Positions 1 through 50,641 of a DNA stretch of 64,000 nt are shown one piece after another. The notes under the pieces were generated by a model. It was not told where the DNA came from and made no database searches. It saw only the letters and a list, made by a program, of their open reading frames with translations. Numbering within the stretch: position 1 is the stretch's first letter; every line of letters starts with the position of its first letter. Source of the DNA: Eledone cirrhosa. Lineage: Eukaryota. The translations under genes and the position numbers were made by a program. The stretch lies in the NCBI GenBank assembly GCA_964016885.1, contig OZ024744.1, forward strand, positions 15,500,001-15,564,000. The letters run 5' to 3'.

Positions 1-3000
1 GTAATGGCAAATGTCCAAAACTCTCTCACATATACACTCTCTCTCACATACACACTCTCCCACAAAAGTCCACCCATTCCCACAAGTAATGGCAAATGTC
101 CAAAACTCTCTCACATATACACTCTCTCTCTCTCACATACACACTCTCCCACAAAAGTCCACCCATTCCCACAAGTAATGGCAAATGTCCAAAACTCTCT
201 CACATATACACTCTCTCTCTCTCTCACATACACACTCTCCCACAAAAGTCCACCCATTCCCACAAGTAATGGCAAATGTCCAAAACTCTCTCACATACAC
301 ACTCTCCCACAAAAGTCCACCCATTCCCACAAGTAGTGGCAAATGTCCAAAACTCTCTCACATATATACTCTCTCTCTCTCACATACACACTCTCCCACA
401 AAAGTCCACCCATTTTCACAAGTAATGGCAAATGTCCAAAACTCTCTCACATATACACTCTCTCTCTCTCTCACATACACACTCTCCCACAAAATTCCAC
501 CCATTCCCACAAGTAATGGCAAATGTCCAAAACTATCTCACATATACACTCTCTCTCTCTCACATACACACTCTCCCACAAAAGTCCACCCATTCCCACA
601 AGTAATGGCAAATGTCCAAAACTCTCTCACATATACACTCTCTCTCTCTCTCTCTCTCTCACATACACACTCTCCCACAAAAGTCCACCCATTCCCACAA
701 GTAATGGCAAATATCCAAAACTCTCTCACATATACACTCTCTCTCTCTCACATACACACTCTCCCACAAAAGTCCACCCATTCCCACAAGTAATGGCAAA
801 TATCCAAAACTCTCACATATACACTCTCTCTCTCTCTCTCACATACACACTCTCCCACAAAAGTCCACCCATTCCCACAAGTAATGGAAAATGTCCAAAA
901 CTGTCTCACATATACACTCTCTCTCACATACACACTCTCCCACAAAAGTCCACCCATTCCCACAAGTAATGGCAAAAGTCCAAAACTCTCTCACATATAC
1001 ACTCTCTCTCTCTCACATACACACTCTCCCACAAAAGTCCACCCATTCTCACAAGTAATGGCAAATGTCCAAAACTCTCTCACATATACACTCTCTCTCT
1101 CTCTCACATACACACTCTCCCATAAAAGTCCACCCATTCCCACAAGTAATGGCAAATGTCCAAAACTCTCTTACATATACACTCTCTCTCTCTCACATAA
1201 CACTCTCCCACAAAAGTCCACCCATTCCCACTAGTAATGGCAAATGTCCAAAACTCTCTCACATATACACTCTCTCTCACATACACACTCTCCCACAAAA
1301 GTCCACCCATTCCCACAAGTAATGGCAAATGTCCAAAACTCTCTCACATATACACTCTCTCTCTCTCACATACACACTCTCCCACAAAAGTCCACCCATT
1401 CCCACAAGTAATGGCAAATGTCCAAAACTCTCTCACATATACACTCTCTCTCTCTCTCACATACACACTCTCCCACAAAAGTCCACCCATTCCCACAAGT
1501 AATGGCAAATGTCCAAAACTCTCTCACATACACACTCTCCCACAAAAGTCCACCCATTCCCACAAGTAGTGGCAAATGTCCAAAACTCTCTCACATATAT
1601 ACTCTCTCTCTCTCACATACACACTCTCCCACAAAAGTCCACCCATTTTCACAAGTAATGGCAAATGTCCAAAACTCTCTCACATATACACTCTCTCTCT
1701 CTCTCACATACACACTCTCCCACAAAATTCCACCCATTCCCACAAGTAATGGCAAATGTCCAAAACTATCTCACATATACACTCTCTCTCTCTCACATAC
1801 ACACTCTCCCACAAAAGTCCACCCATTCCCACAAGTAATGGCAAATGTCCAAAACTCTCTCACATATACACTCTCTCTCTCTCTCTCTCTCTCTCACATA
1901 CACACTCTCCCACAAAAGTCCACCCATTCCCACTAGTAATGGCAAATGTCCAAAACTCTCTCACATATACACTCTCTCTCTCTCTCACATACACACTCTC
2001 CCACAAAAGTCCACCCATTCCCACAAGTAATGGCAAATGTCCAAAACTCTCTCACATATACACTCTCTCTCTCTCTCTCTCTCACTCTCTCTCTCTCTCA
2101 CATACACACTCTCCCACAAAAGTCCACCCATTCCCACAAGTAATGGCAAATGTCTAAAACTCTCTCACATATACACTCTCTCTCTCTCACATACACTCTC
2201 CCACAAAAGTCCACCCATTCCCACTAGTAATGGCAAATGTCCAAAACTCTCTCACATATACACTCTCTCTCACATACACACTCTCCCACAAAAGTCCACC
2301 CATTCCCACAAGTAATGGCAAATGTCCAAAACTCTCTCACATATACACTCTCTCTCTCTCACATACACACTCTCCCACAAAAGTCCACCCATTCCCACAA
2401 GTAATGGCAAATGTCCAAAACTCTCTCACATATACACTCTCTCTCTCTCTCACATACACACTCTCCCACAAAAGTCCACCCATTCCCACAAGTAATGGCA
2501 AATGTCCAAAACTCTCTCACATACACACTCTCCCACAAAAGTCCACCCATTCCCACAAGTAGTGGCAAATGTCCAAAACTCTCTCACATATACACTCTCT
2601 CTCTCACATACACACTCTCCCACAAAAGTCCACCCATTCCCACAAGTAATGGCAAATGTCCAAAACTCTCTCACATATACACTCTCTCTCTCTCTCACAT
2701 ACACACTCTCCCACAAAAGTCCACCCATTCCCACAAGTAATGGCAAATGTCCAAAACTCTCTCACATATACACTCTCTCTCTCTCACATACACACTCTCC
2801 CACAAAAGTCCACCCATTCCCACAAGTAATGGCAAATGTCCAAAACTCTCTCACATATACACTCTCTCTCTCTCTCTCACATACACACTCTCCCACAAAA
2901 GTCCACCCATTCCCACAAGTAATGGCAAGTGTCCAAAACTCTCTCACATATACACTCTCTCTCTCTCACATACACACTCTCCCACAAAAGTCCAGCCATT

Positions 3001-6000
3001 CCCACAAGTAATGGCAAATATCCAAAACTCTCTCACATATACACTCTCTCTCTCTCACATACACACTCTCCCACAAAAGTCCACCCATTCCCACAAGTAA
3101 TGACAAATGTCCAAAACTCTCTCACATATACACTCTCTCTCTCTCACATACACACTCTCCCACAAAAGTCCACCCATTCCCACAAGTAATGGCAAATGTC
3201 CAAAACTCTCTCACATATACACTCTCTCTCTCTCACATACACACTCTCCCACAAAAGTCCACCCATTCCCACAAGTAATGGCAAATGTCCAATACTCTCT
3301 CACATATACACACTCTCTCTCTCACATACACACTCTCCCACAAAAGTCCACCCATTCCCACAAGTAATGGCAAATGTCCAAAACTCTCTCACATACACAC
3401 TCTCCCACAAAAGTCCACCCATTCCCACAAGTAGTGGCAAATGTCCAAAACTCTCTCACATATATACTCTCTCTCTCTCACATACACACTCTCCCACAAA
3501 AGTCCACCCATTTTCACAAGTAATGGCAAATGTCCAAAACTCTCTCACATATACACTCTCTCTCTCTCTCACATACACACTCTCCCACAAAATTCCACCC
3601 ATTCCCACAAGTAATGGCAAATGTCCAAAACTATCTCACATATACACTCTCTCTCTCTCACATACACACTCTCCCACAAAAGTCCACCCATTCCCACAAG
3701 TAATGGCAAATGTCCAAAACTCTCTCACATATACACTCTCTCTCTCTCTCTCTCTCTCTCACATACACACTCTCCCACAAAAGTCCACCCATTCCCACTA
3801 GTAATGGCAAATGTCCAAAACTCTCTCACATATACACTCTCTCTCTCTCTCACATACACACTCTCCCACAAAAGTCCACCCATTCCCACAAGTAATGGCA
3901 AATGTCCAAAACTCTCTCACATATACACTCTCTCTCTCTCTCTCTCTCACTCTCTCTCTCTCTCACATACACACTCTCCCACAAAAGTCCACCCATTCCC
4001 ACAAGTAATGGCAAATGTCTAAAACTCTCTCACATATACACTCTCTCTCTCTCACATACACTCTCCCACAAAAGTCCACCCATTCCCACTAGTAATGGCA
4101 AATGTCCAAAACTCTCTCACATATACACTCTCTCTCACATACACACTCTCCCACAAAAGTCCACCCATTCCCACAAGTAATGGCAAATGTCCAAAACTCT
4201 CTCACATATACACTCTCTCTCTCTCACATACACACTCTCCCACAAAAGTCCACCCATTCCCACAAGTAATGGCAAATGTCCAAAACTCTCTCACATATAC
4301 ACTCTCTCTCTCTCTCACATACACACTCTCCCACAAAAGTCCACCCATTCCCACAAGTAATGGCAAATGTCCAAAACTCTCTCACATACACACTCTCCCA
4401 CAAAAGTCCACCCATTCCCACAAGTAGTGGCAAATGTCCAAAACTCTCTCACATATACACTCTCTCTCTCACATACACACTCTCCCACAAAAGTCCACCC
4501 ATTCCCACAAGTAATGGCAAATGTCCAAAACTCTCTCACATATACACTCTCTCTCTCTCTCACATACACACTCTCCCACAAAAGTCCACCCATTCCCACA
4601 AGTAATGGCAAATGTCCAAAACTCTCTCACATATACACTCTCTCTCTCTCACATACACACTCTCCCACAAAAGTCCACCCATTCCCACAAGTAATGGCAA
4701 ATGTCCAAAACTCTCTCACATATACACTCTCTCTCTCTCTCTCACATACACACTCTCCCACAAAAGTCCACCCATTCCCACAAGTAATGGCAAGTGTCCA
4801 AAACTCTCTCACATATACACTCTCTCTCTCTCACATACACACTCTCCCACAAAAGTCCAGCCATTCCCACAAGTAATGGCAAATATCCAAAACTCTCTCA
4901 CATATACACTCTCTCTCTCTCACATACACACTCTCCCACAAAAGTCCACCCATTCCCACAAGTAATGACAAATGTCCAAAACTCTCTCACATATACACTC
5001 TCTCTCTCTCACATACACACTCTCCCACAAAAGTCCACCCATTCCCACAAGTAATGGCAAATGTCCAAAACTCTCTCACATATACACTCTCTCTCTCTCA
5101 CATACACACTCTCCCACAAAAGTCCACCCATTCCCACAAGTAATGGCAAATGTCCAATACTCTCTCACATATACACACTCTCTCTCTCACATACACACTC
5201 TCCCACAAAAGTCCACCCATTCCCACAAGTAATGGCAAATGTCCAAAACTCTCTCACATATACACTCTCTCTCCCTCTCACATACACACTCTCCCACAAA
5301 AGTCCACCCATTCCCACAAGTAATGGCAAATATCCAAAACTCTCACATATACACTCTCTCTCTCTCTCTCACATACACACTCTCCCACAAAAGTCCACCC
5401 ATTCCCACAAGTAATGGAAAATGTCCAAAACTGTCTCACATATACACTCTCTCTCACATACACACTCTCCCACAAAAGTCCACCCATTCCCACAAGTAAT
5501 GGCAAAAGTCCAAAACTCTCTCACATATACACTCTCTCTCTCTCACATACACACTCTCCCACAAAAGTCCACCCATTCCCACAAGTAATGGCAAATGTCC
5601 AAAACTCTCTCACATATACACACTCTCTCTCTCACATAACACTCTCCCACAAAAGTCCACCCATTCCCACTAGTAATGGCAAATGTCCAAAACTCTCTCA
5701 CATATACACTCTCTCTCACATACACACTCTCCCACAAAAGTCCACCCATTCCCACAAGTAATGGCAAATGTCCAAAACTCTCTCACATATACACTCTCTC
5801 TCTCTCACATACACACTCTCCCACAAAAGTCCACCCATTCCCACAAGTAATGGCAAATGTCCAAAACTCTCTCACATATACACTCTCTCTCTCTCTCACA
5901 TACACACTCTCCCACAAAAGTCCACCCATTCCCACAAGTAATGGCAAATGTCCAAAACCCTCTCACATACACACTCTCCCACAAAAGTCCACCCATTCCC

Positions 6001-7801
6001 ACAAGTAGTGGCAAATGTCCAAAACTCTCTCACATATATACTCTCTCTCTCTCACATACACACTCTCCCACAAAAGTCCACCCATTTTCACAAGTAATGG
6101 CAAATGTCCAAAACTCTCTCACATATACACTCTCTCTCTCTCTCACATACACACTCTCCCACAAAATTCCACCCATTCCCACAAGTAATGGCAAATGTCC
6201 AAAACTATCTCACATATACACTCTCTCTCTCTCACATACACACTCTCCCACAAAAGTCCACCCATTCCCACAAGTAATGGCAAATGTCCAAAACTCTCTC
6301 ACATATACACTCTCTCTCTCTCTCTCTCTCTCTCACATACACACTCTCCCACAAAAGTCCACCCATTCCCACAAGTAGTGGCAAATGTCCAAAACTCTCT
6401 CACATATACACACTCTCTCTCTCACATACACACTCTCCCACAAAAGTCCACCCATTCCCACAAGTAATGGCAAATATCCAAAACTCTCTCACATATACAC
6501 TCTCTCTCTCTCACATACACACTCTCCCACAAAGTCCACCCATTCCCACAAGTAATGGCAAATATCCAAAACTCTCACATATACACTCTCTCTCTCTCTC
6601 TCACATACACACTCTCCCACAAAAGTCCACCCATTCCCACAAGTAATGGAAAATGTCCAAAACTGTCTCACATATACACTCTCTCTCACATACACACTCT
6701 CCCACAAAAGTCCACCCATTCCCACAAGTAATGGCAAAAGTCCAAAACTCTCTCACATATACACTCTCTCTCTCTCACATACACACTCTGCCACAAAAGT
6801 CCACCCATTCTCACAAGTAATGGCAAATGTCCAAAACTCTCTCACATATACACTCTCTCTCTCTCACATAACACTCTCCCACAAAAGTCCACCCATTCCC
6901 ACTAGTAATGGCAAATGTCCAAAACTCTCTCACATATACACTCTCTCTCACATACACACTCTCCCACAAAAGTCCACCCATTCCCACAAGTAATGGCAAA
7001 TGTCCAAAACTCTCTCACATATACACTCTCTCTCTCTCACATACACACTCTCCCACAAAAGTCCACCCATTCCCACAAGTAATGGCAAATGTCCAAAACT
7101 CTCTCACATATACACTCTCTCTCTCTCACATAACACTCTCCCACAAAAGTCCACCCATTCCCACTAGTAATGGCAAATGTCCAAAACTCTCTCACATATA
7201 CACTCTCTCTCACATACACACTCTCCCACAAAAGTCCACCCATTCCCACAAGTAATGGCAAATGTCCAAAACTCTCTCACATATACACTCTCTCTCTCTC
7301 ACATACACACTCTCCCACAAAAGTCCACCCATTCCCACAAGTAATGGCAAATGTCCAAAACTCTCTCACATATACACTCTCTCTCTCTCTCACATACACA
7401 CTCTCCCACAAAAGTCCACCCATTCCCACAAGTAATGGCAAATGTCCAAAACTCTCTCACATACACACTCTCCCACAAAAGTCCACCCATTCCCACAAGT
7501 AGTGGCAAATGTCCAAAACTCTCTCACATATATACTCTCTCTCTCTCACATACACACTCTCCCACAAAAGTCCACCCATTTTCACAAGTAATGGCAAATG
7601 TCCAAAACTCTCTCACATATACACTCTCTCTCTCTCTCACATACACACTCTCCCACAAAATTCCACCCATTCCCACAAGTAATGGCAAATGTCCAAAACT
7701 ATCTCACATATACACTCTCTCTCTCTCACATACACACTCTCCCACAAAAGTCCACCCATTCCCACAAGTAATGGCAAATGTCCAAAACTCTCTCACATAT
7801 A

Positions 7802-7835
<34 letters not shown>

Positions 7836-10823
7836 TACACACTCTCCCACAAAAGTCCACCCATTCCCACAAGTAATGGCAAATGTCCAAAACTCTCTCA
7901 CATATACACACTCTCTCTCTCACATACACACTCTCCCACAAAAGTCCACCCATTCCCACAAGTAATGGCAAATATCCAAAACTCTCTCACATATACACTC
8001 TCCCTCTCTCACATACACACTCTCCCACAAAAGTCCACCCATTCCCACAAGTAATGGCAAATATCCAAAACTCTCACATATACACTCTCTCTCTCTCTCA
8101 CATACACACTCTCCCACAAAAGTCCACCCATTCCCACAAGTAATGGAAAATGTCCAAAACTGTCTCACATATACACTCTCTCTCACATACACACTCTCCC
8201 ACAAAAGTCCACCCATTCCCACAAGTAATGGCAAAAGTCCAAAACTCTCTCACATATACACTCTCTCTCTCTCACATACACACTCTCCCACAAAAGTCCA
8301 CCCATTCTCACAAGTAATGGCAAATGTCCAAAACTCTCTCACATATACACTCTCTCTCTCTCTCACATACACACTCTCCCATAAAAGTCCACCCATTCCC
8401 ACAAGTAATGGCAAATGTCCAAAACTCTCTTACATATACACTCTCTCTCTCTCACATAACACTCTCCCACAAAAGTCCACCCATTCCCACTAGTAATGGC
8501 AAATGTCCAAAACTCTCTCACATATACACTCTCTCTCACATACACACTCTCCCACAAAAGTCAACCCATTCCCACAAGTAATGGCAAATGTCCAAAACTC
8601 TCTCACATATACACTCTCTCTCTCTCACATACACACTCTCCAACAAAAGTCCACCCATTCCCACAATTAATGGCAAATGTCCAAAACTCTCTCACATATA
8701 CACTCTCTCTCTCTCTCACATACACACTCTCCCACAAAAGTCCACCCATTCCCACAAGTAATGGCAAATGTCCAAAACTCTCTCACATACACACTCTCCC
8801 ACAAAAGTCCACCCATTCCCACAAGTAGTGGCAAATGTCCAAAACTCTCTCACATATATACTCTCTCTCTCTCACATACACACTCTCCCACAAAAGTCCA
8901 CCCATTTTCACAAGTAATAGCAAATGTCCAAAACTCTCTCACATATACACTCTCTCTCTCTCTCAAATACACACTCTCCCACAAAATTCCACCCATTCCC
9001 ACAAGTAATGGCAAATGTCCAAAACTATCTCACATATACACTCTCTCTCTCTCACATACACACTCTCCCACAAAAGTCCACCCATTCCCACAAGTAATGG
9101 CAAATGTCCAAAACTCTCTCACATATACACTCTCTCTCTCTCTCTCTCTCTCTCACATACACACTCTCCCACAAAAGTCCACCCATTCCCACAAGTAATG
9201 GCAAATGTCCAAAACTCTCTCACATATACACACTCTCTCTCTCACATACACACTCTCCCACAAAAGTCCACCCATTCCCACAAGTAATGGCAAATATCCA
9301 AAACTCTCTCACATATACACTCTCTCTCTCTCACATACACACTCTCCCACAAAAGTCCACCCATTCCCACAAGTAATGACAAATGTCCAAAACTCTCTCA
9401 CATATACACTCTCTCTCTCTCACATACACACTCTCCCACAAAAGTCCACCCATTCCCACAAGTAATGGCAAATGTCCAAAACTCTCTCACATATACACTC
9501 TCTCTCTCACATACACACTCTCCCACAAAAGTCCACCCATTCCCACAAGTAATGGCAAATGTCCAATACTCTCTCACATATACACTCTCTCTCTCTCACA
9601 TACACACTCTCCCACAAAAGTCCACCCATTCCCACAAGTAATGGCAAATGTCCAAAACTCTCTCACATATACACTCTCTCTCTCTCACATACACACTCTC
9701 CCACAAAAGTCCACCCATTCCCACAAGTAATGGCAAATGTCCAAAACTCTCTCACATATACACTCTCTCTCACATACACACTCTCCCACAAAAGTCCACC
9801 CATTCCCACAAGTAATGGCAAATGTCCAAAACTCTCTCACATATACACTCTCTCTCTCTCACATACACACTCTCCCACAAAAGTCCACCCATTCCCACAA
9901 GTAATGGCAAATGTCCAAAACTCTCTCACATATACACTTTCTCTCTCTCACATACACACTCTCCCACAAAAGTCCACCCATTCCCACAAGTAATGGCAAA
10001 TGTCCAAAACTCTCACATATACACACTCTCTCTCTCACATACACACTCTCCCACAAAAGTCCACCCATTCCCACAAGTAATGGCAAATGTCCAAAACTCT
10101 CTCACATATACACTCTCTCTCTCACATACACACTCTCCCACAAAAGTCCACCCATTCCCACAAGTAATGGCAAATGTCCAAAACTCTCTCACATATACAC
10201 TCTCTCTCTCACATACACACTCTCCCACAAAAGTCCATCCATTCCCACAAGTAATGGCAAATGTCAAAAACTCTCTCACATATACACTCTCTCTCACATA
10301 CACACTCTCTCACATACACACTCTCCGACAAAAGTCCACCCATTCCCACAAGTAATGGCAAATGTCCAAAACTCTCTCACATATACACTCTCTCTCTCTC
10401 TCTCACATACACACTCTCCCACAAAAGTCCACCCATTCCCACAAGTAATGGTAAATGTCCAAAACTCTCACATATACACACTCTCTCTCTCACATACACA
10501 CTCTCCCACAAAAGTCCACCCATTCCCACAAGTAATGGCAAATGTCCAAAACTCTCTCACATATACACTCTCTCTCTCTCACATACACACTCTCCCACAA
10601 AAGTCCACCCATTCCCACAAGTAATGGCAAATGTCCAAAACTCTCTCACATATACACTCTCTCTCTCTCTCACATACACACTCTCCCACAAATGTCCACC
10701 CATTCCCACAAGTAATGACAAATGTCCAAAACTCTCTCACATATACACTCTCTCTCTCTCACATACACACTCTCCCACAAAAGTCCACCCATTCCCACAA
10801 GTAATGGCAAATGTCCAAAACTC
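1..10823. repeat. Tandem satellite, ~89-bp monomer (67-113 bp depending on the internal (CT)n tract), ~120 copies, continues past the left edge
   Basis: Monomer GTAATGGCAAATGTCCAAAACTCTCTCACATATACAC(TC)nACATACACACTCTCCCACAAAAGTCCACCCATTCCCACAA repeats without interruption; diagnostic variants recur in blocks. Confidence 0.98.
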
Positions 10824-22255: not shown

Positions 22256-22354
22256 TAATCATTGTTATTCAGGTCATGCTGGAGTACTACATATATGAAG
22301 ATAACACAATAGTTTGTACATTTAATAATAGAGAGCCTTTAGCTATTAAATAAC

Positions 22355-23253
22355 AGATGTCTGAGGTAGGAAATATAGAAGGATGAGGTAGGAAATATCG
22401 ATGTCTGAGGTATCAAATATAGATGTCTGAGGTAGGAAATATAGATGTCTGAGGGAGGAAATATAGAAGGATGAGGTAGGAAATATAGATGTCTGAGGTA
22501 TCAAATATAGATGTCTGAGGAAGGAAATATAGATGTCTGAGCTAGCAAATATAGATGTCTGAGGTAGGAAATATAGATGTCTGAGGTAGGAAATATAGAG
22601 GATGTCTGAGGTAGGAAATATAGAAGGATGAGGTAGGAAATAAAGATGTCTGAGGTAGAAATATAGATGTCTGAGGTAGGAAATATAGAGGATGTCTGAG
22701 GTGGGAAATATAGAAGGATGAGGTAGGAAATAAAGATGTCTGAGGTAGAAATATAGATGTCTGAGGTAGGAAATATAGAAGGATGAGGTAGGAAATATAG
22801 ATGTCTGAGGTAGGAAATATAGATGTCTGAGGTAGGAAATATAGATGTCTGAGGTAGGAAATATAGATGTTTGAGGTAGGAAATATAGATGTCTGAGGTA
22901 GAAATATAGATGTCTGAGGTAGGAAATATAGATGTCTGAGGTAGGAAATATAGATGTCTGAGGTAGGAAATATAGATGTCTGAGGTAGAAATATAGATGT
23001 CTGAGGTAGGTAATAAAGATGTTTGAGTTAGGAAATATAGATGTCTATGGTAGGAAATATGGATGTCTGAGGTAGGAAATATAGATGTCTGAGGTAGGAA
23101 ATATAGATGTCTGAGGCAGGAAATATAGATGTCTGAGGTAGGAAATATAGATGTCTGAGGTAGGAAATATAGAGGATGTCTGAGGTAGGAAATATAGAGG
23201 ATGTCTGAGGTAGGAAATATAGATGTCTGAGGTAGGAAATATGGAGGATGTCT
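22355..23253. repeat. 22-bp minisatellite GAAATATAGATGTCTGAGGTAG, ~40 copies
   Basis: Direct tandem repetition with 21/22/25-bp variants. Confidence 0.97.
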
Positions 23254-29971: not shown

Positions 29972-30620
29972 TTCCAATTCAGGTGGGTTCTATAGAAGTG
30001 GTTGATAACTTCCGGTACCTAGGTGATCAGATTAGCATGTGAGGGGGGGGGGATTCCGAGGCCATAGTATCTAAAATAAGGACAGGTTGGAAGAGTTTAG
30101 GGAGCTGCTCCCTCTGTTGACAAAGAAGGGTTTCTCCCTGCGTACGAAAGGACGGTTATATGATGCCTGTGTGAGATGCGCGATGCTGCATAGTAGTGAG
30201 ACATGGGCAGTAACTGAAGAAGATATGTGACGGCTGGAGAGAACTGAGGCAAGCATGCTCCGTTGGATGTGCAATGTCAATGTGCATGAACGACCAAGCA
30301 TAAACGAGTTGAGAAAGAAACTGGGTATAAGAGGAATAAGTTGTGGTGTGCAGGAGAGAAGGCTGAGATGGTATGGCCATGTGATGTGCATGGAGGATGA
30401 CGGTTGGGTAAAGAAGTGCCAGGAAGTCTCATTGGGGGGAAGACGCAGTAGAGGAAGACCACGAAAAACATGGGTGGAGGTGGTGAGAGCTCACCTCAGA
30501 TCGCTGAAACTCACGGAGGAGATGACGAAGGACCATGACGGGTGGAGAGATGCTGTGCTGAATAGGACCCGTCCAACTCTTGCAAGCAGGGAAAAGCGGA
30601 TGTAAAATGATGATGATGAT
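29972..30620 (+). mobile_element. 5'-truncated RTE LINE (subfamily B) 3' end
   Basis: RRLRWYGHV...RPTLASREKR, (GAT)n tail; homologous to 23551-24204. Confidence 0.92.
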
Positions 30621-30816
30621 AGAACAGAGAAGGTGTGGCAAGATGCCAGGTGGACCATAACGCACCAGAGTACTCGATACTTAGGGTAGTAGAGTGGGTA
30701 ATAGGAAAAGAGTCAGGACCCCGACGGCTGGGCTCTGACTGTTTCGACAGCTAGATCCGGATCTAGCTGTCGAAACAGCCAGAGCCCAGCCGTCAGGGTC
30801 CTGACTCTTTTCCTAT
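30619..30816 (-). mobile_element. ~200-bp fold-back element, copy A (116-bp palindrome at 30701-30816 plus tail)
   Basis: 58-bp arms with 2 mismatches centred on GATCC|GGATC; tail homologous to 50482-50560; abuts (TA)n. Confidence 0.8.
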
Positions 30817-30849
30817 ATATATATATATATATATATGTATCTATATCTA

Positions 30850-40735: not shown

Positions 40736-41352
40736 ATATATATATGATGATATATATATATATAGTATAAAAGAGAAAACACAGGTAAGCATTAAGAGAA
40801 GGATTTTATCCAGGTATTTACGACCGTTTCATTGGTAAGTGCAACCTTATATTGCTATACTGCAAATAGCAGCCTCTCAATTATAATTGTTGTTCACAGT
40901 CCAAATTTTCAAAATAGTAAGTTACTCTTGAAATAATTCTTAATATATAGAGAAAAACATTTATTTGGAATTGTATTTACTAGTATAGAGAGAGAGGAAT
41001 CAGGTGAGGGGACAGACGGAATAGTATAGAGACTGAGGAAGGAGGAAGAGGTAGGAAGTAGAGTGACAAACTGAGATAGAGGGAGGGGTAGAGGTGGAAG
41101 GATTCCTTGGTCAGTTTTGATAGCTGACTTCATGTCGTGGAATGTAGTGAGTTAAAGAGAATTAAATTGATCATAGTGGGAGGGTTTGAACGGAATTCTT
41201 ACAAACTTGTGGAGTTACCCCTAACCGTACGTTGAAACCATCCATGAAACTGGCTTTCTTAACCAAAAACTGGATCACAATAAGCAATTTTTTGCTTCTC
41301 TAACTACAGGCTCCTTATCGGTCGAGCAACCACCTAAACATACGGTACTACT

Positions 41353-41976
41353 ATGGAAAAGCATTACATAGGTATGTCCCTACAGAACATTCCTATACCT
41401 CGGAGAAAGGATTATACTCTCGGGATGATACAGCGAACAAACGACTTTATACTCAGAGTTAGATGGAAAACTTTCCATTTCGACAAAGGACGTAATGGTC
41501 GCACCGTGGAATACAACAAGGAAACATATGGCTTCAAATCGTGTAAGAACCCACTACCAACCCCCAACTGGATGCCTTTGAACAGGACTTACTGAAGATG
41601 ATTATGAATATCAAATTCAAAAAGCGGAGGAATAATAAACTCCAGAATGACATAAATAGATTCCTAAAAAAGCTGCGAACCACCAATGGAATTATTGTCA
41701 AAGCGGACAAAACATCAAATGTGTATAGGATGGATGTTAATACATACAATAGCTTCATACGGAAGGAATTACATAGGAAATACAAAAAAACAAATGAGGC
41801 GGCACTGATAAACATCAACGAGGCAAACACCTAGGAATACACAACAGAACAGAGCCACTTAGGCCATGTACCCCCACATTTAACCTCAAAGACCACAAGT
41901 TAAATTTTGATTATAACCCCACAATTAGACTTATATGCCCGCCCAAATCGGACATCGGGAAAGTTAGTAAACATAT
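41353..41976 (+). pseudogene. PLE ORF, N-terminal part
   Basis: MSLQNIPIP, RVRWK, YGFKS, VKADKTSNVY, LKDHK..F, IRLICP.KSDIGKVSK; frameshifts. Confidence 0.85.
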
Positions 41977-44900
41977 ATGCTAGAGCAAAAGGAAATTGAT
42001 GTATGCTGTGTGCAAGAGACTAGATGGAGAGGAGAGTCTGCTAGAGTCCTGGTAGGAAAAAGGCGGTGCTACTAATTTTCTGGGTAGGAAATGACGATGG
42101 GATGGGTGGTGTAGGTATACTAGCTGACAAGTGGGTAGATAAAGTAATCTCAGTGTACAGGGTAAATGCAAGAATCATTAAACTCAGACTAGTCCTGAAT
42201 AAAACAATTACCACAATAATATCAGCTTACGCACCCCAATCGGGGCTGCCAGACGAACTTAAGGATAGGTTTTACGAGTCCCTAATGCACACTACTGCTC
42301 TAACAGACGACAATGATTTCCTAATCATCGCAGGAGATTTTAACGGACACGTAGGTAAAGACTGCGATGGCTTGAATAGAGTACATGGAGGCCATGGGGT
42401 TGGCACAAGAAATGAGGAAGGATTCAGACTTCTAGAATTCTGCGACGCCAATGACATGTCGATATGTAACACAAACTTTAAAAAACCTGACAACCACCTG
42501 ATCACCTATAGATCAGTGGAGCACTCCAGTCAGATAGATTTTATCCTCATCAGAGGACGTGACAGATGGACGGTCGTAAACACAAAAGCCTTCCCTAGTG
42601 AGGAATGTACATCACAACATAGCTTAGTTGTCAGCGACCTCAGTCAGAACTAGACAAACCTGGAAACAGAGGCCAACCTGGAGAAGAAAGATCTGGAAGC
42701 TGAAAGATCCCTCAACCAGTAACAGATTTAAAAATATTTTACTCAACGCCTACGACAGTAAAGAAGAACATATAGAGACATTCAATGTAGAAGAGAACTG
42801 GGAGTTCCTAAAAAATAACTTACTAGAGGCGACGGATGAGGTCTGTGGCTGGAGTAAGATCTCAAGCAGGAGGAGAGTGACATGGTGGTGGAACAATAAG
42901 GTAGATGAGGCAGTTAAGGCCAAGAGACAGGCATGGAAAGAATGGAAGAACGGGGGGAGCAGGGTACATTACATAGAGACCAAGAGGGAAGCTAGGCGAC
43001 AAGTATACTTAGCTAGGAGGGAAGCAGAGGATAGAAAATTCAAGCATGTTTTGCAACGTGAGGACCAGAAACAGGAGGTGTTCAAGATTGCGAGGCAGTG
43101 TGTCAGAGAGAGTTGTGATGTCATTGGAGAGAAGTGTATCCAGAATGATAAAGGTGAGCTTGCCCTCACAAGTGCTGAGAAGAAAGATGCATGGAAGAGT
43201 CATTATGATAGATTCTCTAAATGAGGAGAATGCATAGGAAGAAGAGACCCTACCCCAAGTAGACCCTATAGAGGGGCCAGCAGTACAAGTCAGCAGCAAT
43301 GTAGTAAGTAAGGCAATCAAAGATATGAAGATGGGGAAAGCAACCAGTCCATCGGGTATAGCTGCCGAGATGCTGAAGACATCTGGGTCTGTAGGTCCCA
43401 CTATAACCACACGTATTGTTAACCAGGTAATACTAGAAGGTGTCATACCAAAAGATTGGTGCAGTAGCATCATTGTCAACTGCTACAAAGGTAAAGGTGA
43501 TGCACTAGATAGAGGAAACTATAGAGGTAAAAAGCTGATGGACCAGGTCATGAAAGTAACAGAAAGAGTTATAGCACAGTTGATTAGAGACCGGGTGAAA
43601 CTAGACGAGATGCAATTTGGGTTTGTACCAGGAAGAGGCACCACTGATGCCCTCTTCCTTGTGAGGCAGTTACAGGAAAAGTACCTAGCTAAAAGTAAGC
43701 CACTCTACCTGGCATTTGTCGACCTTGAGAAAGCCTTTGACAGAGTTCCACGTGCTGTAATCTGGTAGGCTCTTAGAAAACTAGGAGTAGATGAATGGCT
43801 TGTGAAAGCGGTACAAGCCATGTATAGGGGAGCAGTCAGCAAAGTTAGGATTAGCAATGAGTATAGCGAGGAATTTAGCGTACAGGTTGGGGTCCACCAG
43901 GGCTCTGTTCTTAGCCCCCTCCTGTTCATCATAGTCCTGCAGGCAATAACGGAGGAGTTTAAGACCGGATGCCCATGGGAACTCCTGTATGCTGATGACC
44001 TCGCACTTATAGCTGAATCTATGGTAGAACTAGAGAAGAAATTCCAAACTTGGAAGGGTCTCAAAGTCAACATGACAAAGACTAAGGTGCTTGTAAGTAG
44101 ACGAGAAAACAGAACCCAGATCCCCTCAGGGAAATGGTCTTGCTCAGTATGTAGGAAAGGTGTAGGTAGGAACTCCATTCTCTGCCCCAAATGCAAACAA
44201 TGGGTACACAAGAGATGTAGCGGGATCTCAGGAAGCTTAATTAAGAATGTAGGCTTCACATGCAGCAGCTGTGCTGGGACAGCAAGCAGCAAAAAGCCAC
44301 AGGAAACAAGTACCACCAATCTCTGGGAGGGCTCTGTAGAAACAGTAGACAGCTTCTGCTACCTAGGTGACCAAATTAGCAGCGGAGGTGGGTGTTCAGA
44401 AAGTACAATAACTAGGGTAAGAACGGGATGGAAGAAGTTTAGGCAACTACTACCACTGCTAGCTGCAAAAGGCTTCTCCCTCAAAATGAAAGGCAGACTG
44501 TATGATGCGTGTATCCGAACAGCGATGTTGCATGGTAGTGAGACCTGGGCTGAAGGTGGAAGACTTACGTAGATTAGAGAGAAACGAAGCCTGCATGCTC
44601 CAATGGATGTGTAACAGTAATATACGCGAACGACAAAGCATAAATGAATTGAGAGAGAGACTGAGCATAAGAGGAATCAAATGCTGTGTGCAGGAGAGGC
44701 GGTTGCGCTGGTATGGACATGTGATGCATATGAAGGATGACAGCTGCATAAAAAGGTGCAGAGCACTAGAAGTCGATGGAAACCACGGAGTGGGGAGACC
44801 CAAGTTGACCTGGGATGAGGTAATAAAAGCCGACCTTACCCAATTACACCTCTCAAAGGCGATGACACACGACCGTGACCTCTGGCATCACGCAGTAATA

Positions 44901-45228
44901 CAGAGTACCCAACCTCCCATGGGTACAAGCTGAAGCATATAGACAATATGCCCCCACACCCCCCACCGCAAGGTGGTTGTGGAGGTGCCACGGCAAAAAA
45001 GCACCCAGCCCGCACTGTAAAGTGGACGTGTAGGCGCCACGAAAAAGCACCCATCGGTAGGTTGAGAGTTCAATTCTCAGGCCGGGTGATGTGTTCCTGT
45101 ATGATGTGTTCCTGTATGAGCAAGGCATGGTCAGCCGACCAGACACTGCCCACAACAGGACAACCCGTCTAACCCATGCTAGCGTGGAAGAACGGACGTA
45201 AAATGGTGATGATGATGATGATAATGAT
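41977..45228 (+). mobile_element. RTE LINE inserted in the PLE ORF
   Basis: APE-RT-PHD ORFs 42066-44933; splits PLE ...VSKHI|LDRVI... with a short ATAT duplication or microhomology. Confidence 0.96.
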
Positions 45229-46945
45229 ATTAGACAGAGTGATAGCACAAATGAAGAATAAACTAGTGATTAAACTATGGGGTAACGCTTCCGAAACAAT
45301 TAAGTGGTTTAACAATATAGCTAACAAAGAAGTATCTAAATTTATACAATTTGACATTAACGATTATTACTCATCTATATCCCCCAACACTTTGGATAAA
45401 GCCTTAGCATTCGCCAAAGCCAATTCTGACATAACAGACGACGAGATAAAAATCATATTAGCTGCTAGGAAAACAATAATTAAATTTGAAAACGCCTATT
45501 GGGAACGTAAGTATAGATTAAATAACTTTGACATCACGATGGGGGCTAACGACTCGGCTCAAGTCACAGATTTAGTAGGTATTTACATAGCCCATAGTTT
45601 ACAAAGTGAGTTTAGCGACCTTCATGGTGGAATCTACAGAGACGACGCCCTTCTCCTAGTTAAGAACCTAAATAACCAGAGCATAGAAAGACTCCGTAAG
45701 AATATTAGAAAGACTCTCGGAAAACTAGGCCTTAGCATAACATATGAGTATAGCACTAAAACAGTTAACTTTCTAGACGTGATGCTTAACCTTAATACGG
45801 GACTTATAAGACCTTTTCACAAGATTAATGAAAACTTAGCATACATCAACTGTAACTCAAACCACCCACTATCCATAATTAAATCCAATCCACGCAACAT
45901 ATCCCTTAGGATTTCCCACCTCTCGTCTAACCGACAAATCTTCGAAGAACATGCAGAATACTACAATACCGCATTAGACAAGGCAGGCCACTTAGATAGA
46001 GTAGAATATATAGATGAAAGCCTCCGTGAAGCGCACACGAACACGCATAACACAAACTCCGGTATCACACGCACACACGCACTTACACATAGAACTGCAA
46101 AGTATACGGCAAATAGAAATACAACATCGAAATCAAACAAGTCACGCAGTAGAAAATATATTTGGTATAACTCCATATTTAACACCTCTATTAGTACTAA
46201 CCTACCCTCTACCTTCTTTAGAATAATAAATAAGCACTTTCCAGATTCACATAGATACAGCAAAATCCTTAACACTAAATCTATTAGACTATCTTACTCC
46301 ACGGCACCAAATATAGAGGCACACATTAAGATGCTTAACTCTAAAAAGATATATAACAACACCAGAACACAAATTTACAACAATAACAATACAATCACCA
46401 CCGAACACAACAGATATCTAATACACAACCACCCGCTAATAGGCAAACAAAACGTAACACACTTGTACAGGCATCGCAGCCCACAAATAATGCCAAAGTT
46501 GCCCATGACAAGAACTGTAACTGCCACCTACCTGAAACCTGTCCATTACATAATGAATGTATGCAGTCTAACCTGGTTTACCAATGCACAGTGGAATCAG
46601 ACAACCAGAAATGGTATTACATCGGAGCGACTGGGAATACATTTAAAGCCCGTTGGTTTACACACCGTTACGCAATGAAACATTCCCAGCCTCGGTATGT
46701 AACTACCCTTGCAAACAAGACCTGGCAACTGAGGGAAAGTAACCATCAATACACCCTGAAGTGGAAAAAAATTATCAAACGCGCCGCCATATCGGAGTGG
46801 TATGAGAAGCTGTCGATTATGCGACCTTGAGCTGTTCCACATCTTAAGTTCGAAGAATAAGTTACTCAACAATAAAATCGAGAGATCAATTTATTGTAAC
46901 CATAGACTCAAAGAGAAGTTTTCACACTACAAATCGAACCCTTAA
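45229..46945 (+). pseudogene. PLE RT plus Cys linker plus GIY-YIG endonuclease
   Basis: QFDINDYYSSI, FDITMGA, IYRDD, VNFLDV; CNC-x5-CPL-x3-C linker; LVYQC...YYIGATGNTFKARW; CRLCDLE; frameshifted. Confidence 0.92.
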
Positions 46946-47992
46946 CCTCTTACTACCAACTGACAAACTGCATATACTTAGACTTTATACCCTCTTGTTG
47001 TATCTAAACCCTTTAATTACCCACAAAACCAATACATATATCCCCCTCTTCTCCCTCATTCCTCTTCTATTTATACGTTTTCTTCCTTCCTTCCCTCCCC
47101 TTCTTGGCTATCTTTTCTTTTTTTCTTTCTCACCCCCTTCTTTGCTTTTATTTTTGTCATTATTATCTTTATCTTTATTTTTTATATATATATATTTATC
47201 TCTTTATATCTCCCCCCTCTCTCTCTCCCTCTCTATCCATCCCTCCCACTATGATCAATTTAATTCTCTTTAACTCACTACATTCCATGACATGAAGTCT
47301 GCTATCAAAACTGACCAAGGAATCCTTCCACCTCTACCCCTCCCTCTATCTCAGTTTGTCACTCTACTTCCTACCTCTTGCCCCTTCCTCTCTCTCTATA
47401 CTATTCCATCTGTCCCCTCACCTTCTGATTCCTCTCTCTCTATACTAGTAAATACAATTCCAAATAAATGTTTTTCTTTATATATTAAGAATTATTTCAA
47501 GAGTAACTTACTATTTTGAAAATTTGGACTGTGAACAACAATTATAATTGAGAGGCTGCTATTTGCAGTATAGCAATATAAGGTTGCACTTACCAATGAA
47601 ACGGTCGTAAATACTTGGATAAAATCCTTCTCATAATGCTTACCTGCGTTTTCTCTTTTATACTTTATACTCCAAGATTGAACGGAATTCTTACAAACTT
47701 GTGGAGTTACCCCTAACCGTAAGTTGAAACCATCCATGAAACTGGCTTTCTTAACCAAAAACTGGATCACAATAAGCAATTTTTTGCTTCTCTAACTATA
47801 TATATATATATACACAGTTCAAGAGTAACCAATCTTAAAGAGAGAGATGGAGATAGTAGAGGAGATATGAGAGGAGAGATTGGTGAGTTAGTTAGAAGCC
47901 GAAGCGTAAAGGCATGTGCTCAATGTGCAATATGCAGTAGAAAGCAGCTAGGTGGCTGGGTTCATGCAGAAGTTAGGTGCGCAGAGCTGGAA

Positions 47993-48482
47993 ATATTCAT
48001 TAGTTAAGCAAAACAAGACCACAAACTTCATAAGGAAGACATTATTAAAAGATTGTCAACATATTTTAGTTTGATGTAAGGAATGTAGAGAATAATAATA
48101 ACATTAATAATATTAATAATAATAATGTCCGTTTACAATTGTTTCGCTACTCCATATAATATTTCTGGATCAGATGACTATATATCATAATTGATCTGGT
48201 TCAGTTGAAAATAATTAACATATTTAAAAAACAGAGTGGCTCATCGGAACTTCAAAGGAATATAAATTAAAATAATGGGATAATGTTACATAATATAATG
48301 TTCCAAATAGATACAGAAATATTATATGGAGTAGCGAAACAATTGTAAACGGACATTATTATTATTAATATTATTATTATTATTCTCTACATTCCTTACA
48401 TCAAACTAAAATATGTTGACAATCTTTTAATAATGTCTTCCTTGTGAAGTTTGTGGTCTTGATTTGCTTAACTAATGAATAT
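47993..48482 (-). mobile_element. ~490-bp non-coding fold-back element with ~170-bp inverted arms
   Basis: 47993-48167 is the reverse complement of 48314-48482; 146-bp spacer; (TA)n at the right flank. Confidence 0.85.
48128..48259 (-). ncRNA. Putative minimal type I hammerhead ribozyme (U4C variant)
   Basis: Minus strand GTT-CCGATGA-GCCACTCTGT...ATGGAGTAGC-GAAAC-AATT-GTA-AAC: stem II 9/10 pairs, stem III with palindromic AAUU loop, stem I GUU/AAC plus UCC/GGA. Confidence 0.65.
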
Positions 48483-50345: not shown

Positions 50346-50365
50346 ATACATACATATATATATAT

Positions 50366-50557
50366 ATAGGAACCAGTAAGACCCCGACAGCTGAGCTCAA
50401 GCCGTTTCGACGGCTAATTCTGGACTGAATTAGCCGTCGAAACGGCTTGAGCTCAGCTGTCGGGGTCTTACTGGTTCCTATTACCCACTCTACTACCTCA
50501 AGTATTGAGTACTTTGGTGCGTTATGGTCCACCTGGTTCCTTACCACATTTCCTTCG

Positions 50558-50560
<3 letters not shown>
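50366..50560 (+). mobile_element. ~195-bp fold-back element, copy B (116-bp hairpin at 50366-50481 plus tail)
   Basis: Perfect 55-bp arms with 6-nt loop TGGACT; (TA)n on both sides; homologous to 30619-30816. Confidence 0.8.

Positions 50561-50641
<81 letters not shown>

What the first reader, a model, noticed from the sequence alone, without database searches (positions are those of the whole stretch)
30619..30816. Family of ~200-bp hairpin elements whose arms co-vary between copies
Copy A (30701-30816) and copy B (50366-50481) are both 116-bp hairpins with the same end point (ATAGGAA...TTCCTAT), the same GACCCCGAC and GTTTCGAC/GTCGAAAC anchors and a shared ~75-bp tail. They differ at many arm positions, yet the arms stay complementary (2 and 0 mismatches). 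Symmetry is thus either regenerated at each mobilisation by fold-back copying or selected. One arm reads stem-C-GAAAC-A-GTC-stem, like the 3' half of a hammerhead whose CUGANGA half was replaced by its own mirror image. Candidate non-autonomous, PLE-dependent, (TA)n-targeting element and dsRNA source.
Basis: partly seen in the sequence, partly recalled or inferred. Interest (0 to 1): 0.75.

Follow-up and report, generated by a model that had tools for sequence, protein, structure and literature searches.

The report
Head-to-head stubs of Hydra Penelope retrotransposon
These hairpins are two of many thousands of very short, back-to-back insertions of the end of a Penelope-like jumping gene; each was likely built once at insertion from two short DNA copies that likely ran off the front of the element's RNA, so they are by-products and probably not a self-spreading hairpin element.

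Summary
Real, and largely a known kind. Both hairpins are the 3' end of a Hydra-clade Penelope-like retrotransposon (PLE) laid head to head in (TA)n. Copy B's right arm plus tail (135 nt) is identical to an intact element with a 719-aa RT-Zn-finger-GIY-YIG frame. The genome holds 50,063 exact arm cores and 36,509 exact tail ends. Arms 'co-vary' because A and B come from different subfamilies and both arms of a copy come from one subfamily; symmetry then decays. 100 of 116 hairpins have their own centre and 112 have the tail on one side only. The parent carries a full hammerhead, with a known U3-A8 core (UUGANAA), not CUGANGA. Both arms, although they start 80 nt apart, stop at the same place inside that hammerhead (66 of 77 tail arms), likely the RNA's 5' end; a smaller class starts at the predicted cut (about 4-8 times two control positions, counted by eye). 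Fold-back copying fails for 25 of 90 pairs. No RNA data were available. The scan already reached this reading on other pieces of this genome and in other genomes.

The parts
30619..30700 (-). Copy A tail: the ~80-nt extension between the two fixed 3' ends (E1 and E2) of the PLE; its outer end abuts the (ATG)n tail of a LINE copy
30701..30759 (-). Copy A left arm: tail-bearing copy, subfamily A, 5'-truncated at about -37 from the predicted hammerhead cut
30758..30816 (+). Copy A right arm: tail-less copy ending at E1 (TTCCTAT), 5'-truncated at about -37; overlaps the left arm by 2 nt (CG)
30769..30800 (+). 3' half of the type I hammerhead in A's right arm: end of stem II, GAAA, stem III, C17, stem I 3' strand; predicted cut between 30794 and 30795
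   Evidence: sequence; parental folds
30817..30837 (.). (TA)n target next to copy A
50354..50365 (.). (TA)n target left of copy B
50366..50426 (-). Copy B left arm: tail-less copy from E1 back to -41 (the common stopping point), subfamily B2
50427..50481 (+). Copy B right arm: -35 to E1; hammerhead 3' half; predicted cut between 50461 and 50462
50482..50561 (+). Copy B tail (E1 to E2, 80 nt). 50427-50561 is identical to L154:4055-4189 of an intact element
50562..50641 (.). (TA)n target right of copy B

Best explanation
The hairpins are two very short 3' ends of a Hydra-clade Penelope-like retrotransposon joined head to head in (TA)n, likely made once at each insertion when both nicked target strands prime reverse transcription, one at E1 and one 80 nt further down at E2, and both DNA copies likely run off the 5' end of the RNA about 41 nt before the hammerhead cut. 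SHOWN: identity to an intact RT-ZnF-GIY-YIG element; two fixed 3' ends 80 nt apart; tail on one side; copy-specific junctions with overlaps or fill; a common stop at -33 to -46 for both arms; a parental U3-A8 hammerhead; decay of symmetry.
For: Parent: L154 has inverted pLTR + partial copy + open 786-codon frame (first ATG gives 719 aa) + pLTR; window B arm+tail identical to it; A-type and C-type parents share the homologous upstream region. Hydra motifs RWR, DKT, CxCx5C, CxxC, CxH present, CCHH absent. Series: inverted pairs at 0.1-3.8 kb and 614 arms with 50 more parental bases. Of 137 tail ends traced, 90 have a head-to-head tail-less partner, 4 a tail-bearing partner, 43 none nearby; 66 of 77 tail arms that reach -33 stop by -46 (0.061 per nt against 0.003-0.009 before and 0.003 or less beyond -60); partners 72 of 75. 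25 of 90 tail arms stop before the hairpin zone; in 45 of 90 the tail-less arm reaches at least 3 nt further upstream. Junctions: 34 overlaps, 14 blunt, 42 with fill. 116 hairpins: 112 one-sided tail, 100 distinct centres. Within-copy arm distance 0.054 against 0.158 between copies (50 pairs). Hammerhead: TTGA-N-AAG with N variable, three-way fold as MFE in parents of A, B and C, 94.7% of cells paired with both-sided changes in stem II. TT(T/C)AGT is nearly invariant in 20 parents while the loop around it diverges. Cut site: about 179 foreign junctions at +1 against about 23 at -2 and 40 at +7 (by-eye shares 51, 17 and 25 of 100 listed rows, scaled to 351, 134 and 161 hits); 17 of the 100 rows are GACCCC-N-GGGGTC, both arms ending at the cut.
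Against: No RNA evidence for a start at -41 or for cleavage. No excess of a cap-templated G at -42: by eye T48, C26, G23, A3 in 100 rows, as expected from partner-arm bases alone; 18 G of 80 in the loci. The wall is soft (-33 to -46) and some -45 calls are over-extension through self-complementary bases. The partner figure (72 of 75) is biased, since partners starting more than 200 nt upstream were not sought; only the tail-arm figure is free of that bias. 43 of 137 tail ends have no close partner. Arms almost always share a subfamily variant and 27 of 90 pairs end within 2 nt of each other, which fold-back also predicts. The +1 class could be an RT pause at the foot of stem III, and a run of four G blurs the position. 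Hammerhead parents are not more stable than shuffles in two of three cases (z -0.6, -0.9, -2.3), and the covariation count does not correct for kinship. All traced copies are from contig C1.
Confidence: 0.75

Rival explanations
1. Fold-back (self-priming): one cDNA, or an antisense template, snaps back and copies itself, giving the mirror arm.
For: Arms nearly always carry the same subfamily variant; 34 of 90 junctions overlap by self-complementary bases; 27 of 90 pairs end within 2 nt of each other; 28 same-change-in-both-arms events among 110 hairpins (20 of them in subfamily A, a set partly chosen for likeness to copy A).
Against: 25 of 90 pairs have a tail arm that stops before the hairpin zone, so neither arm can be the template of the other; the tail-less arm is the longer one upstream in 45 of 90; a few hairpins have arms of two different variants (L140, L147, L164, L254); long tail-less copies exist (L100, L134, L154, L223).
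Confidence: 0.12
2. Same head-to-head product, but the common stop is an RT block at structure (inner helix of loop II or the three-way junction) or a processing site, not a transcription start; the +1 class is a pause at stem III.
For: The stop lies at the 3' foot of a predicted inner helix in B and C parents; no cap-G signal; in D. virilis Penelope the start lies upstream of the whole hammerhead (PMC2377424 and PMC4209133, passages).
Against: RT has already passed stronger stems before -41; subfamily A has a different loop yet the same stop; the motif at the stop is conserved while the helix is not; beyond -60 copying is processive; T runs just upstream of -41 (L125, L131; 3 of 100 rows) look like end-of-template stutter.
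Confidence: 0.3
3. A non-autonomous ~200-nt hairpin element that is transcribed and re-inserted as a unit by the PLE enzyme.
For: Total lengths pile up at 190-210 bp; some centres recur (one 5 times, including copy B's); at least about 16,000 hairpins (60 of 137 times 36,509).
Against: 100 distinct centres in 116 hairpins; recurrent centres are the simplest joins near a fixed stop; the length peak follows from fixed starts and a fixed stop; continuous series up to full length.
Confidence: 0.05
4. Symmetry is kept after insertion by selection or by arm-to-arm conversion (dsRNA, miRNA-like or cruciform function), or the element is a palindromic MITE of a DNA transposon.
For: Very stable hairpins; weak Rfam miRNA hits below gathering score; 28 both-arm changes.
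Against: One-arm changes outnumber both-arm changes 248 to 28 and rise with subfamily divergence, 91 of them CpG-type; the ends are not terminal inverted repeats of the whole unit (one-sided tail); the parent encodes RT and GIY-YIG, not a transposase.
Confidence: 0.04

Closest known systems
Hydra clade of C-terminal-endonuclease PLEs (Craig et al. 2021, PMC8557442; section 6, passages incl. the Hydra section, supplement look-ups)
   Same: Single ORF RT-linker-GIY-YIG, RW(K/R), DKT, CxCx5C, CxxC and CxH, no CCHH, (TA)n target, hammerhead in the pLTR, inverted 5'-truncated copy.
   Different: Unit 3.1 kb (paper: generally <3 kb); hammerhead core U3-A8 with a long loop II, whereas the Hydra rows seen in File S2 (5 rows, incl. 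Hydra-1_oBim) have CUGANGA-type cores; two marker motifs of this family had 0 hits in the supplement (line breaks could hide a hit). Tens of thousands of ~200-bp stubs are not mentioned in the passages read.
PLE insertions with inverted pLTR and one-sided 30-40 bp tail (PMC8557442 Fig. 2 legend; Adineta vaga Penelopes, PMC3846280, passages)
   Same: Head-to-head inverted copy, tail on one end only, palindromic junctions, TATA/Inr-like motifs in the pLTR.
   Different: Tail is 80 nt; both copies are usually only 55-145 nt; that paper reads the palindromes as self-priming on an antisense template, which many pairs here do not fit.
Poseidon PAc in vitro mechanism (Frangieh et al. 2024, PMC11167929; main text parts 1-2)
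   Same: Two RT start sites that define the tail, AT-rich target, both strands cut and extended, predicted dimer.
   Different: Different clade; the paper does not treat second-end joining in the parts read, and found no RNA-seq reads at the hammerhead cut, whereas genomic junctions here pile up there.
U3-A8 minimal hammerheads of Schistosoma Cercyon PLEs (Cervera and de la Pena 2014, PMC4209133; parts 1-2)
   Same: Type I hammerhead in a PLE pLTR with the U3-A8 covariation; G10.1-C11.1 pair; motifs on opposite strands 100-700 bp apart noted there.
   Different: Here stem III has 5 bp plus a self-complementary loop and loop II is about 40 nt; activity untested.
Non-LTR retrozymes (bioRxiv 10.64898/2026.07.22.740005, part 1 of 5) and palindromic MITEs such as the Xenopus Harbinger (PMC5625713, passages)
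   Same: Short, non-coding, hammerhead-related or palindromic repeats; possible ADAR substrates.
   Different: Retrozymes are tandem direct repeats with complete hammerheads; these stubs are inverted and lack the 5' half. MITEs have one fixed palindromic consensus; these have copy-specific centres.

Membership tests
Hydra-clade PLE (parent) | Single ORF with RT and C-terminal GIY-YIG endonuclease | tested here: met
   L154 frame, motif order DKT, RLINP, FDI, YRDD, WFNPP, ZnF, YIG. Pfam gave 0 families, so this rests on motifs and 279 homologs.
Hydra-clade PLE (parent) | RWK motif, no GxKF/Y; DKG changed to DKT | tested here: met
   RWR at 38, DKT at 118; DK(T/S) in 120 of 120 homologs, RW(K/R) in 112 (criteria).
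Hydra-clade PLE (parent) | CxCx5C linker; CCHH absent; CxxC and CxH around conserved E and N | tested here: met
   CNCPDRSIC, CNLCSEE, CKH; no CxxC before YIG in query or 120 homologs.
Hydra-clade PLE (parent) | (TA)n insertion preference | tested here: met
   80 of 84 tail-less ends run into TA-type repeats; 36,509 tail ends followed by TATATA (the patterns required it).
Hydra-clade PLE (parent) | Canonical hammerhead in the pLTR | tested here: inconclusive
   A complete type I fold is present but with the U3-A8 core, not CUGANGA.
Hydra-clade PLE (parent) | Placement in the Hydra clade on an RT tree with reference elements | not tested
   No named Hydra reference proteins were available as tool sequences.
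PLE inverted-pLTR insertion | 5'-truncated inverted copy adjacent to a direct copy; tail on one end only | tested here: met
   112 of 116 hairpins; 90 of 137 tail ends; L154, L143, L166.
PLE inverted-pLTR insertion | Target-site duplication | not testable with these tools
   Flanks are (TA)n, in which a TSD cannot be read.
Type I hammerhead ribozyme (parent) | Core C3/U3-U-G-A-N-G8/A8-A, GAAA, NUH and three helices | tested here: met
Type I hammerhead ribozyme (parent) | Self-cleavage at NUH | not testable with these tools
   Only indirect: junction excess at +1.
Type I hammerhead ribozyme (window copies A, B) | 5' core box present | tested here: not met
   Both arms stop at -35 to -41; the box lies about 80 nt upstream of the cut.
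Non-autonomous element / non-LTR retrozyme | Fixed unit that spreads as such; tandem units with complete hammerheads | tested here: not met
   100 centres in 116 hairpins; inverted, incomplete hammerhead.
MITE / DNA transposon | Terminal inverted repeats of the whole unit and a transposase parent | tested here: not met
   One-sided tail; RT parent.

The most novel reading that the evidence does not exclude
These stubs are failed 'strong-stop' products that expose a retrovirus-like step in PLE replication: the RNA starts at -41 inside the hammerhead and is cut at GUC^ in the next pLTR, so it carries a 41-nt terminal repeat; RT starts at E1 and E2 near the RNA's 5' end on both target strands, makes 60- and 140-nt DNAs and must jump to the RNA's 3' end through that repeat to copy the ORF. 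That would explain at once the tail, the pLTR, the inverted copy and what the hammerhead is for.
Probability: 0.22. Interest if true: 0.8.

Novelty: new member of a known kind. Interest (0 to 1): 0.42.

Why it matters
How PLEs make their tandem and inverted ends, and whether their hammerheads cut in vivo, are stated as open in the papers read (PMC8557442, PMC11167929, PMC4209133). A family with tens of thousands of young, near-identical stubs records RT start points, template 5' ends and junction repair at base resolution, and gives exact predictions (RNA start near -41, cut at +1, an intact 719-aa enzyme to test). At least about 16,000 near-perfect 110-bp hairpins would also be a ready source of dsRNA where they fall in transcripts; if the host is an octopus (my guess from genome size and repeat content, not shown by any search), this may bear on the high genomic dsRNA fraction reported in PMC5625713. 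The structure itself is a known PLE form, and the scan has met it many times.

Tried and rejected
Search for a parental CTGANGA: 49 hits, heterogeneous, mostly junction fill or flank; rejected once the parent was found with TTGANAAG. DNA search with copy B returned nothing because its words are too common; not evidence. Rfam: only sub-threshold miRNA and repeat hits, no hammerhead. Pfam: 0 families for the ORF. First guesses Naiad and Neptune dropped on domain order and the DKT/CxCx5C motifs. Splice-acceptor reading of TT(T/C)AG at -41: no shared upstream exon in 106 arms or 100 listed rows. Cap-templated G: no excess. RNA: no RNA holder listed; contigs of four runs show the family in three organisms but cannot show starts. 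First pair count used a mis-registered structure, redone. First tracing gave false stops at unrepresented variants and missed partners; replaced. An early note called both mismatches of copy A CpG-type; only one is. Sequence look-up in earlier findings gave nothing. Paper searches for a printed description of this family or of a strong-stop/twin-priming model for PLEs found none; Repbase, Dfam and subscription journals were not searched, and bioRxiv supplements are closed.

Full report
Observation. Both hairpins are present as described. A is tail 30619-30700 plus hairpin 30701-30816 with two mismatched pairs; B is hairpin 50366-50481, perfect outside a 6-nt centre, plus tail 50482-50561; both lie against (TA)n and face opposite ways. 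They fold at z = -21 and -23 and align at 79% with gaps. Rfam gives only sub-threshold hits.

A large family. The window is C28:15,500,001-15,564,000 of a 3.0-Gb genome. Copy A found 3,085 candidates, 40 scored. A 31-nt degenerate arm core has 50,063 exact matches, control 0; exact tail ends number 34,337 (B/C types) and 2,172 (A type). Contigs of four public runs from three coded organisms carry the tail and arm.

The parent. Extending the arm upstream gave 614 longer arms and inverted pairs 0.1-2.5 kb apart; upstream lie about 800 bp of non-coding DNA, a GIY-YIG endonuclease, a Zn-finger linker and RT, on the strand that reads GTCGAAAC. L154 holds an intact element: inverted pLTR with tail, a partial copy, a frame open for 786 codons (719 aa from the first ATG) and a tail-less pLTR, unit 3,118 bp. 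Window 50427-50561 is identical to L154:4055-4189. A-type arms have their own longer forms with the homologous upstream region; I did not find an A-type ORF. The protein has the Hydra-clade marks listed by Craig et al. 2021 (passages): RW(K/R), DKT, CxCx5C, CxxC and CxH, no CCHH; so do most of its 120 best homologs. Pfam is silent. No tree with named references was built. The Octopus Hydra element in that paper's supplement has another, canonical hammerhead, and two marker motifs of this family are not in that supplement.

The hammerhead. Instead 76 long arms show ACCCC-TTGA-N-AAG about 80 nt upstream of GTC^GGGGT, with N = A, T, G or C by subfamily (many of these arms were selected on the C-type motif). 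This is the U3-A8 core reported in Schistosoma PLEs (PMC4209133, parts 1-2). Parents of A, B and C fold into the three-way junction as their minimum-energy form, though two of three are no more stable than shuffles. On 20 parents 94.7% of cells pair and three stem II pairs change on both sides; kinship is not corrected for. The window copies keep only the 3' half.

Anatomy of the stubs. Positions count from the predicted cut. There are two fixed 3' ends, E1 (+20 or +22, TTCCTAT) and E2 (+100 or +102, TTCGTTAT), both ending in TAT against the target. I traced 137 exact tail ends on contig C1, essentially the first 100 places and the first 35: 90 have a head-to-head tail-less partner, 4 a tail-bearing partner (2 insertions), 43 none close by (long or single copies). 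Of 77 tail arms reaching -33, 66 stop by -46; the stop rate is 0.061 per nt there, 0.003-0.009 downstream and 0.003 or less beyond -60. Partners, which start 80 nt earlier, stop in the same zone (72 of 75; biased towards short partners). The stop therefore follows position, not length, and the ~200-bp size is 140 + 60. Junctions are 34 overlaps, 14 blunt, 28 short and 14 longer fills. Among 116 hairpins (loci chosen on junction or upstream motifs, L031-L098 and L169-L198, left out) 112 have the tail on one side and 100 centres are distinct.

Why the arms co-vary. Within-copy distance is 0.054, between-copy 0.158 (50 pairs). Both arms carry one subfamily's variant; A and B are different subfamilies. 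One-arm changes per site are 0.012 (B2), 0.020 (B1, B3), 0.044 (C), 0.055 (A), 91 of 248 CpG-type; both-arm changes are 28, 20 of them in A, whose set was partly chosen for likeness to copy A (6 mixed pairs set aside). Symmetry is born with the insertion and decays; nothing suggests upkeep.

Two cDNAs or fold-back. In 25 of 90 pairs the tail arm stops before the hairpin zone, so each arm holds sequence the other lacks; in 45 the tail-less arm reaches further upstream, in 18 the tail arm, 27 end within 2 nt. A few hairpins join two variants (L140, L147, L164, L254). This fits priming from both nicked strands at two start sites, as shown in vitro for an anole PLE (PMC11167929, parts 1-2), better than the self-priming proposed for rotifer PLE palindromes (PMC3846280, passages). 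Fold-back may still make some copies.

What the stop is. TT(T/C)AGT, with its A at -41, is nearly invariant in 20 parents while the loop around it diverges; it resembles an initiator (consensus recalled; PLE internal promoters with Inr are described in PMC2377424 and PMC3846280). 15,854 arms hold -41 to -19 exactly but lack the parental base at -51. T runs just upstream in a few copies look like end-of-template stutter. Against: no cap-G excess and no RNA data. No shared exon lies upstream, so it is not a splice acceptor. I put the start-site reading at about 0.55. It explains the missing box directly: an RNA that starts inside loop II has no UUGANAA at its front.

A second, smaller stop at the cut. 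With the base before GGGGTC forced to differ from the parent there are 351 hits, and 51 of 100 listed have foreign sequence upstream, 17 of them the mirror GACCCC-N-GGGGTC; controls at -2 and +7 give 134 hits (17 of 100) and 161 hits (25 of 100). These shares were counted by eye; scaled, about 179 against 23 and 40. In the traced sample the excess is slight. Cleavage in vivo is the likeliest cause (about 0.65); an RT pause at stem III is the rival.

Known and new. The structure is the inverted, 5'-truncated copy with one-sided tail drawn for PLEs in PMC8557442 (section 6). The family, its U3-A8 hammerhead, the 80-nt tail and the start inside the hammerhead were not found in print in my searches, which do not cover Repbase, Dfam or subscription journals. 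I formed this reading before opening earlier notes. The scan's unchecked notes give the same reading in at least 30 genomes and for what appears to be this family on other pieces of this genome; that is repetition, not independent support, and one note (e1-10348976) read a single arm end at the cut as chance. Host identity was not established; octopus is my guess. PMC5625713 (passages) reports an exceptionally high dsRNA-forming fraction in Octopus bimaculoides; at least about 16,000 such hairpins (60 of 137 times 36,509) could contribute, untested.

Verdict. Real; new member of a known kind; by-product of PLE integration, not a self-spreading hairpin. Interest 0.42, for the readable record of RNA ends and the testable strong-stop idea.

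Noticed in passing
window 40762-47795: A broken full-length PLE of another Hydra-like family: inverted pLTR (40759-41189 against 47236-47669), ~120-bp tail, ORF pieces at 41350-41977 and 45230-46921 (35-60% identity to the L154 protein), interrupted by LINE copies, in (TA)n.
   Followed up: partly
window 1-10823: 89-bp satellite array, about 117 copies, with higher-order variants and strong strand skew.
   Followed up: no
window 22269-23210: 22-bp minisatellite array (D8 and D13).
   Followed up: no
window 47993-48482: AT-rich inverted repeat, 128-bp arms 95% complementary, 234 bp apart, ending at (TA)n; MITE-like or another head-to-head stub.
   Followed up: no
window 30094-30620 and families D14-D20: Many copies of a LINE ending in (ATG)n (RTE-type by recall); copy A's tail abuts one, and the same adjacency occurs in L024, L103, L110.
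   Followed up: no
L019, L033, L118, L179, L210, L254: A second (TA)n-targeting PLE family with a canonical minimal hammerhead (CTGAAGA ... GAAACAATTGTTC); it also forms head-to-head junctions in or near its hammerhead.
   Followed up: partly
L125, L131; 3 of 100 rows: Runs of 10-18 T directly upstream of the -41 stop, suggesting untemplated or stuttered A at the cDNA end.
   Followed up: partly
L004/L009, L235, L274: Rare insertions with a tail on both sides.
   Followed up: partly
L094-L097, L136, L138, L123, L146: Further Hydra-like PLE families with the same motif set, often nested with this family in the same (TA)n tracts; L094/L095 and L096/L097 look like a segmental duplicate.
   Followed up: no
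L154:4079-4279: The reading frame is open from inside hammerhead stem III through the whole tail, 67 codons before the first ATG.
   Followed up: no
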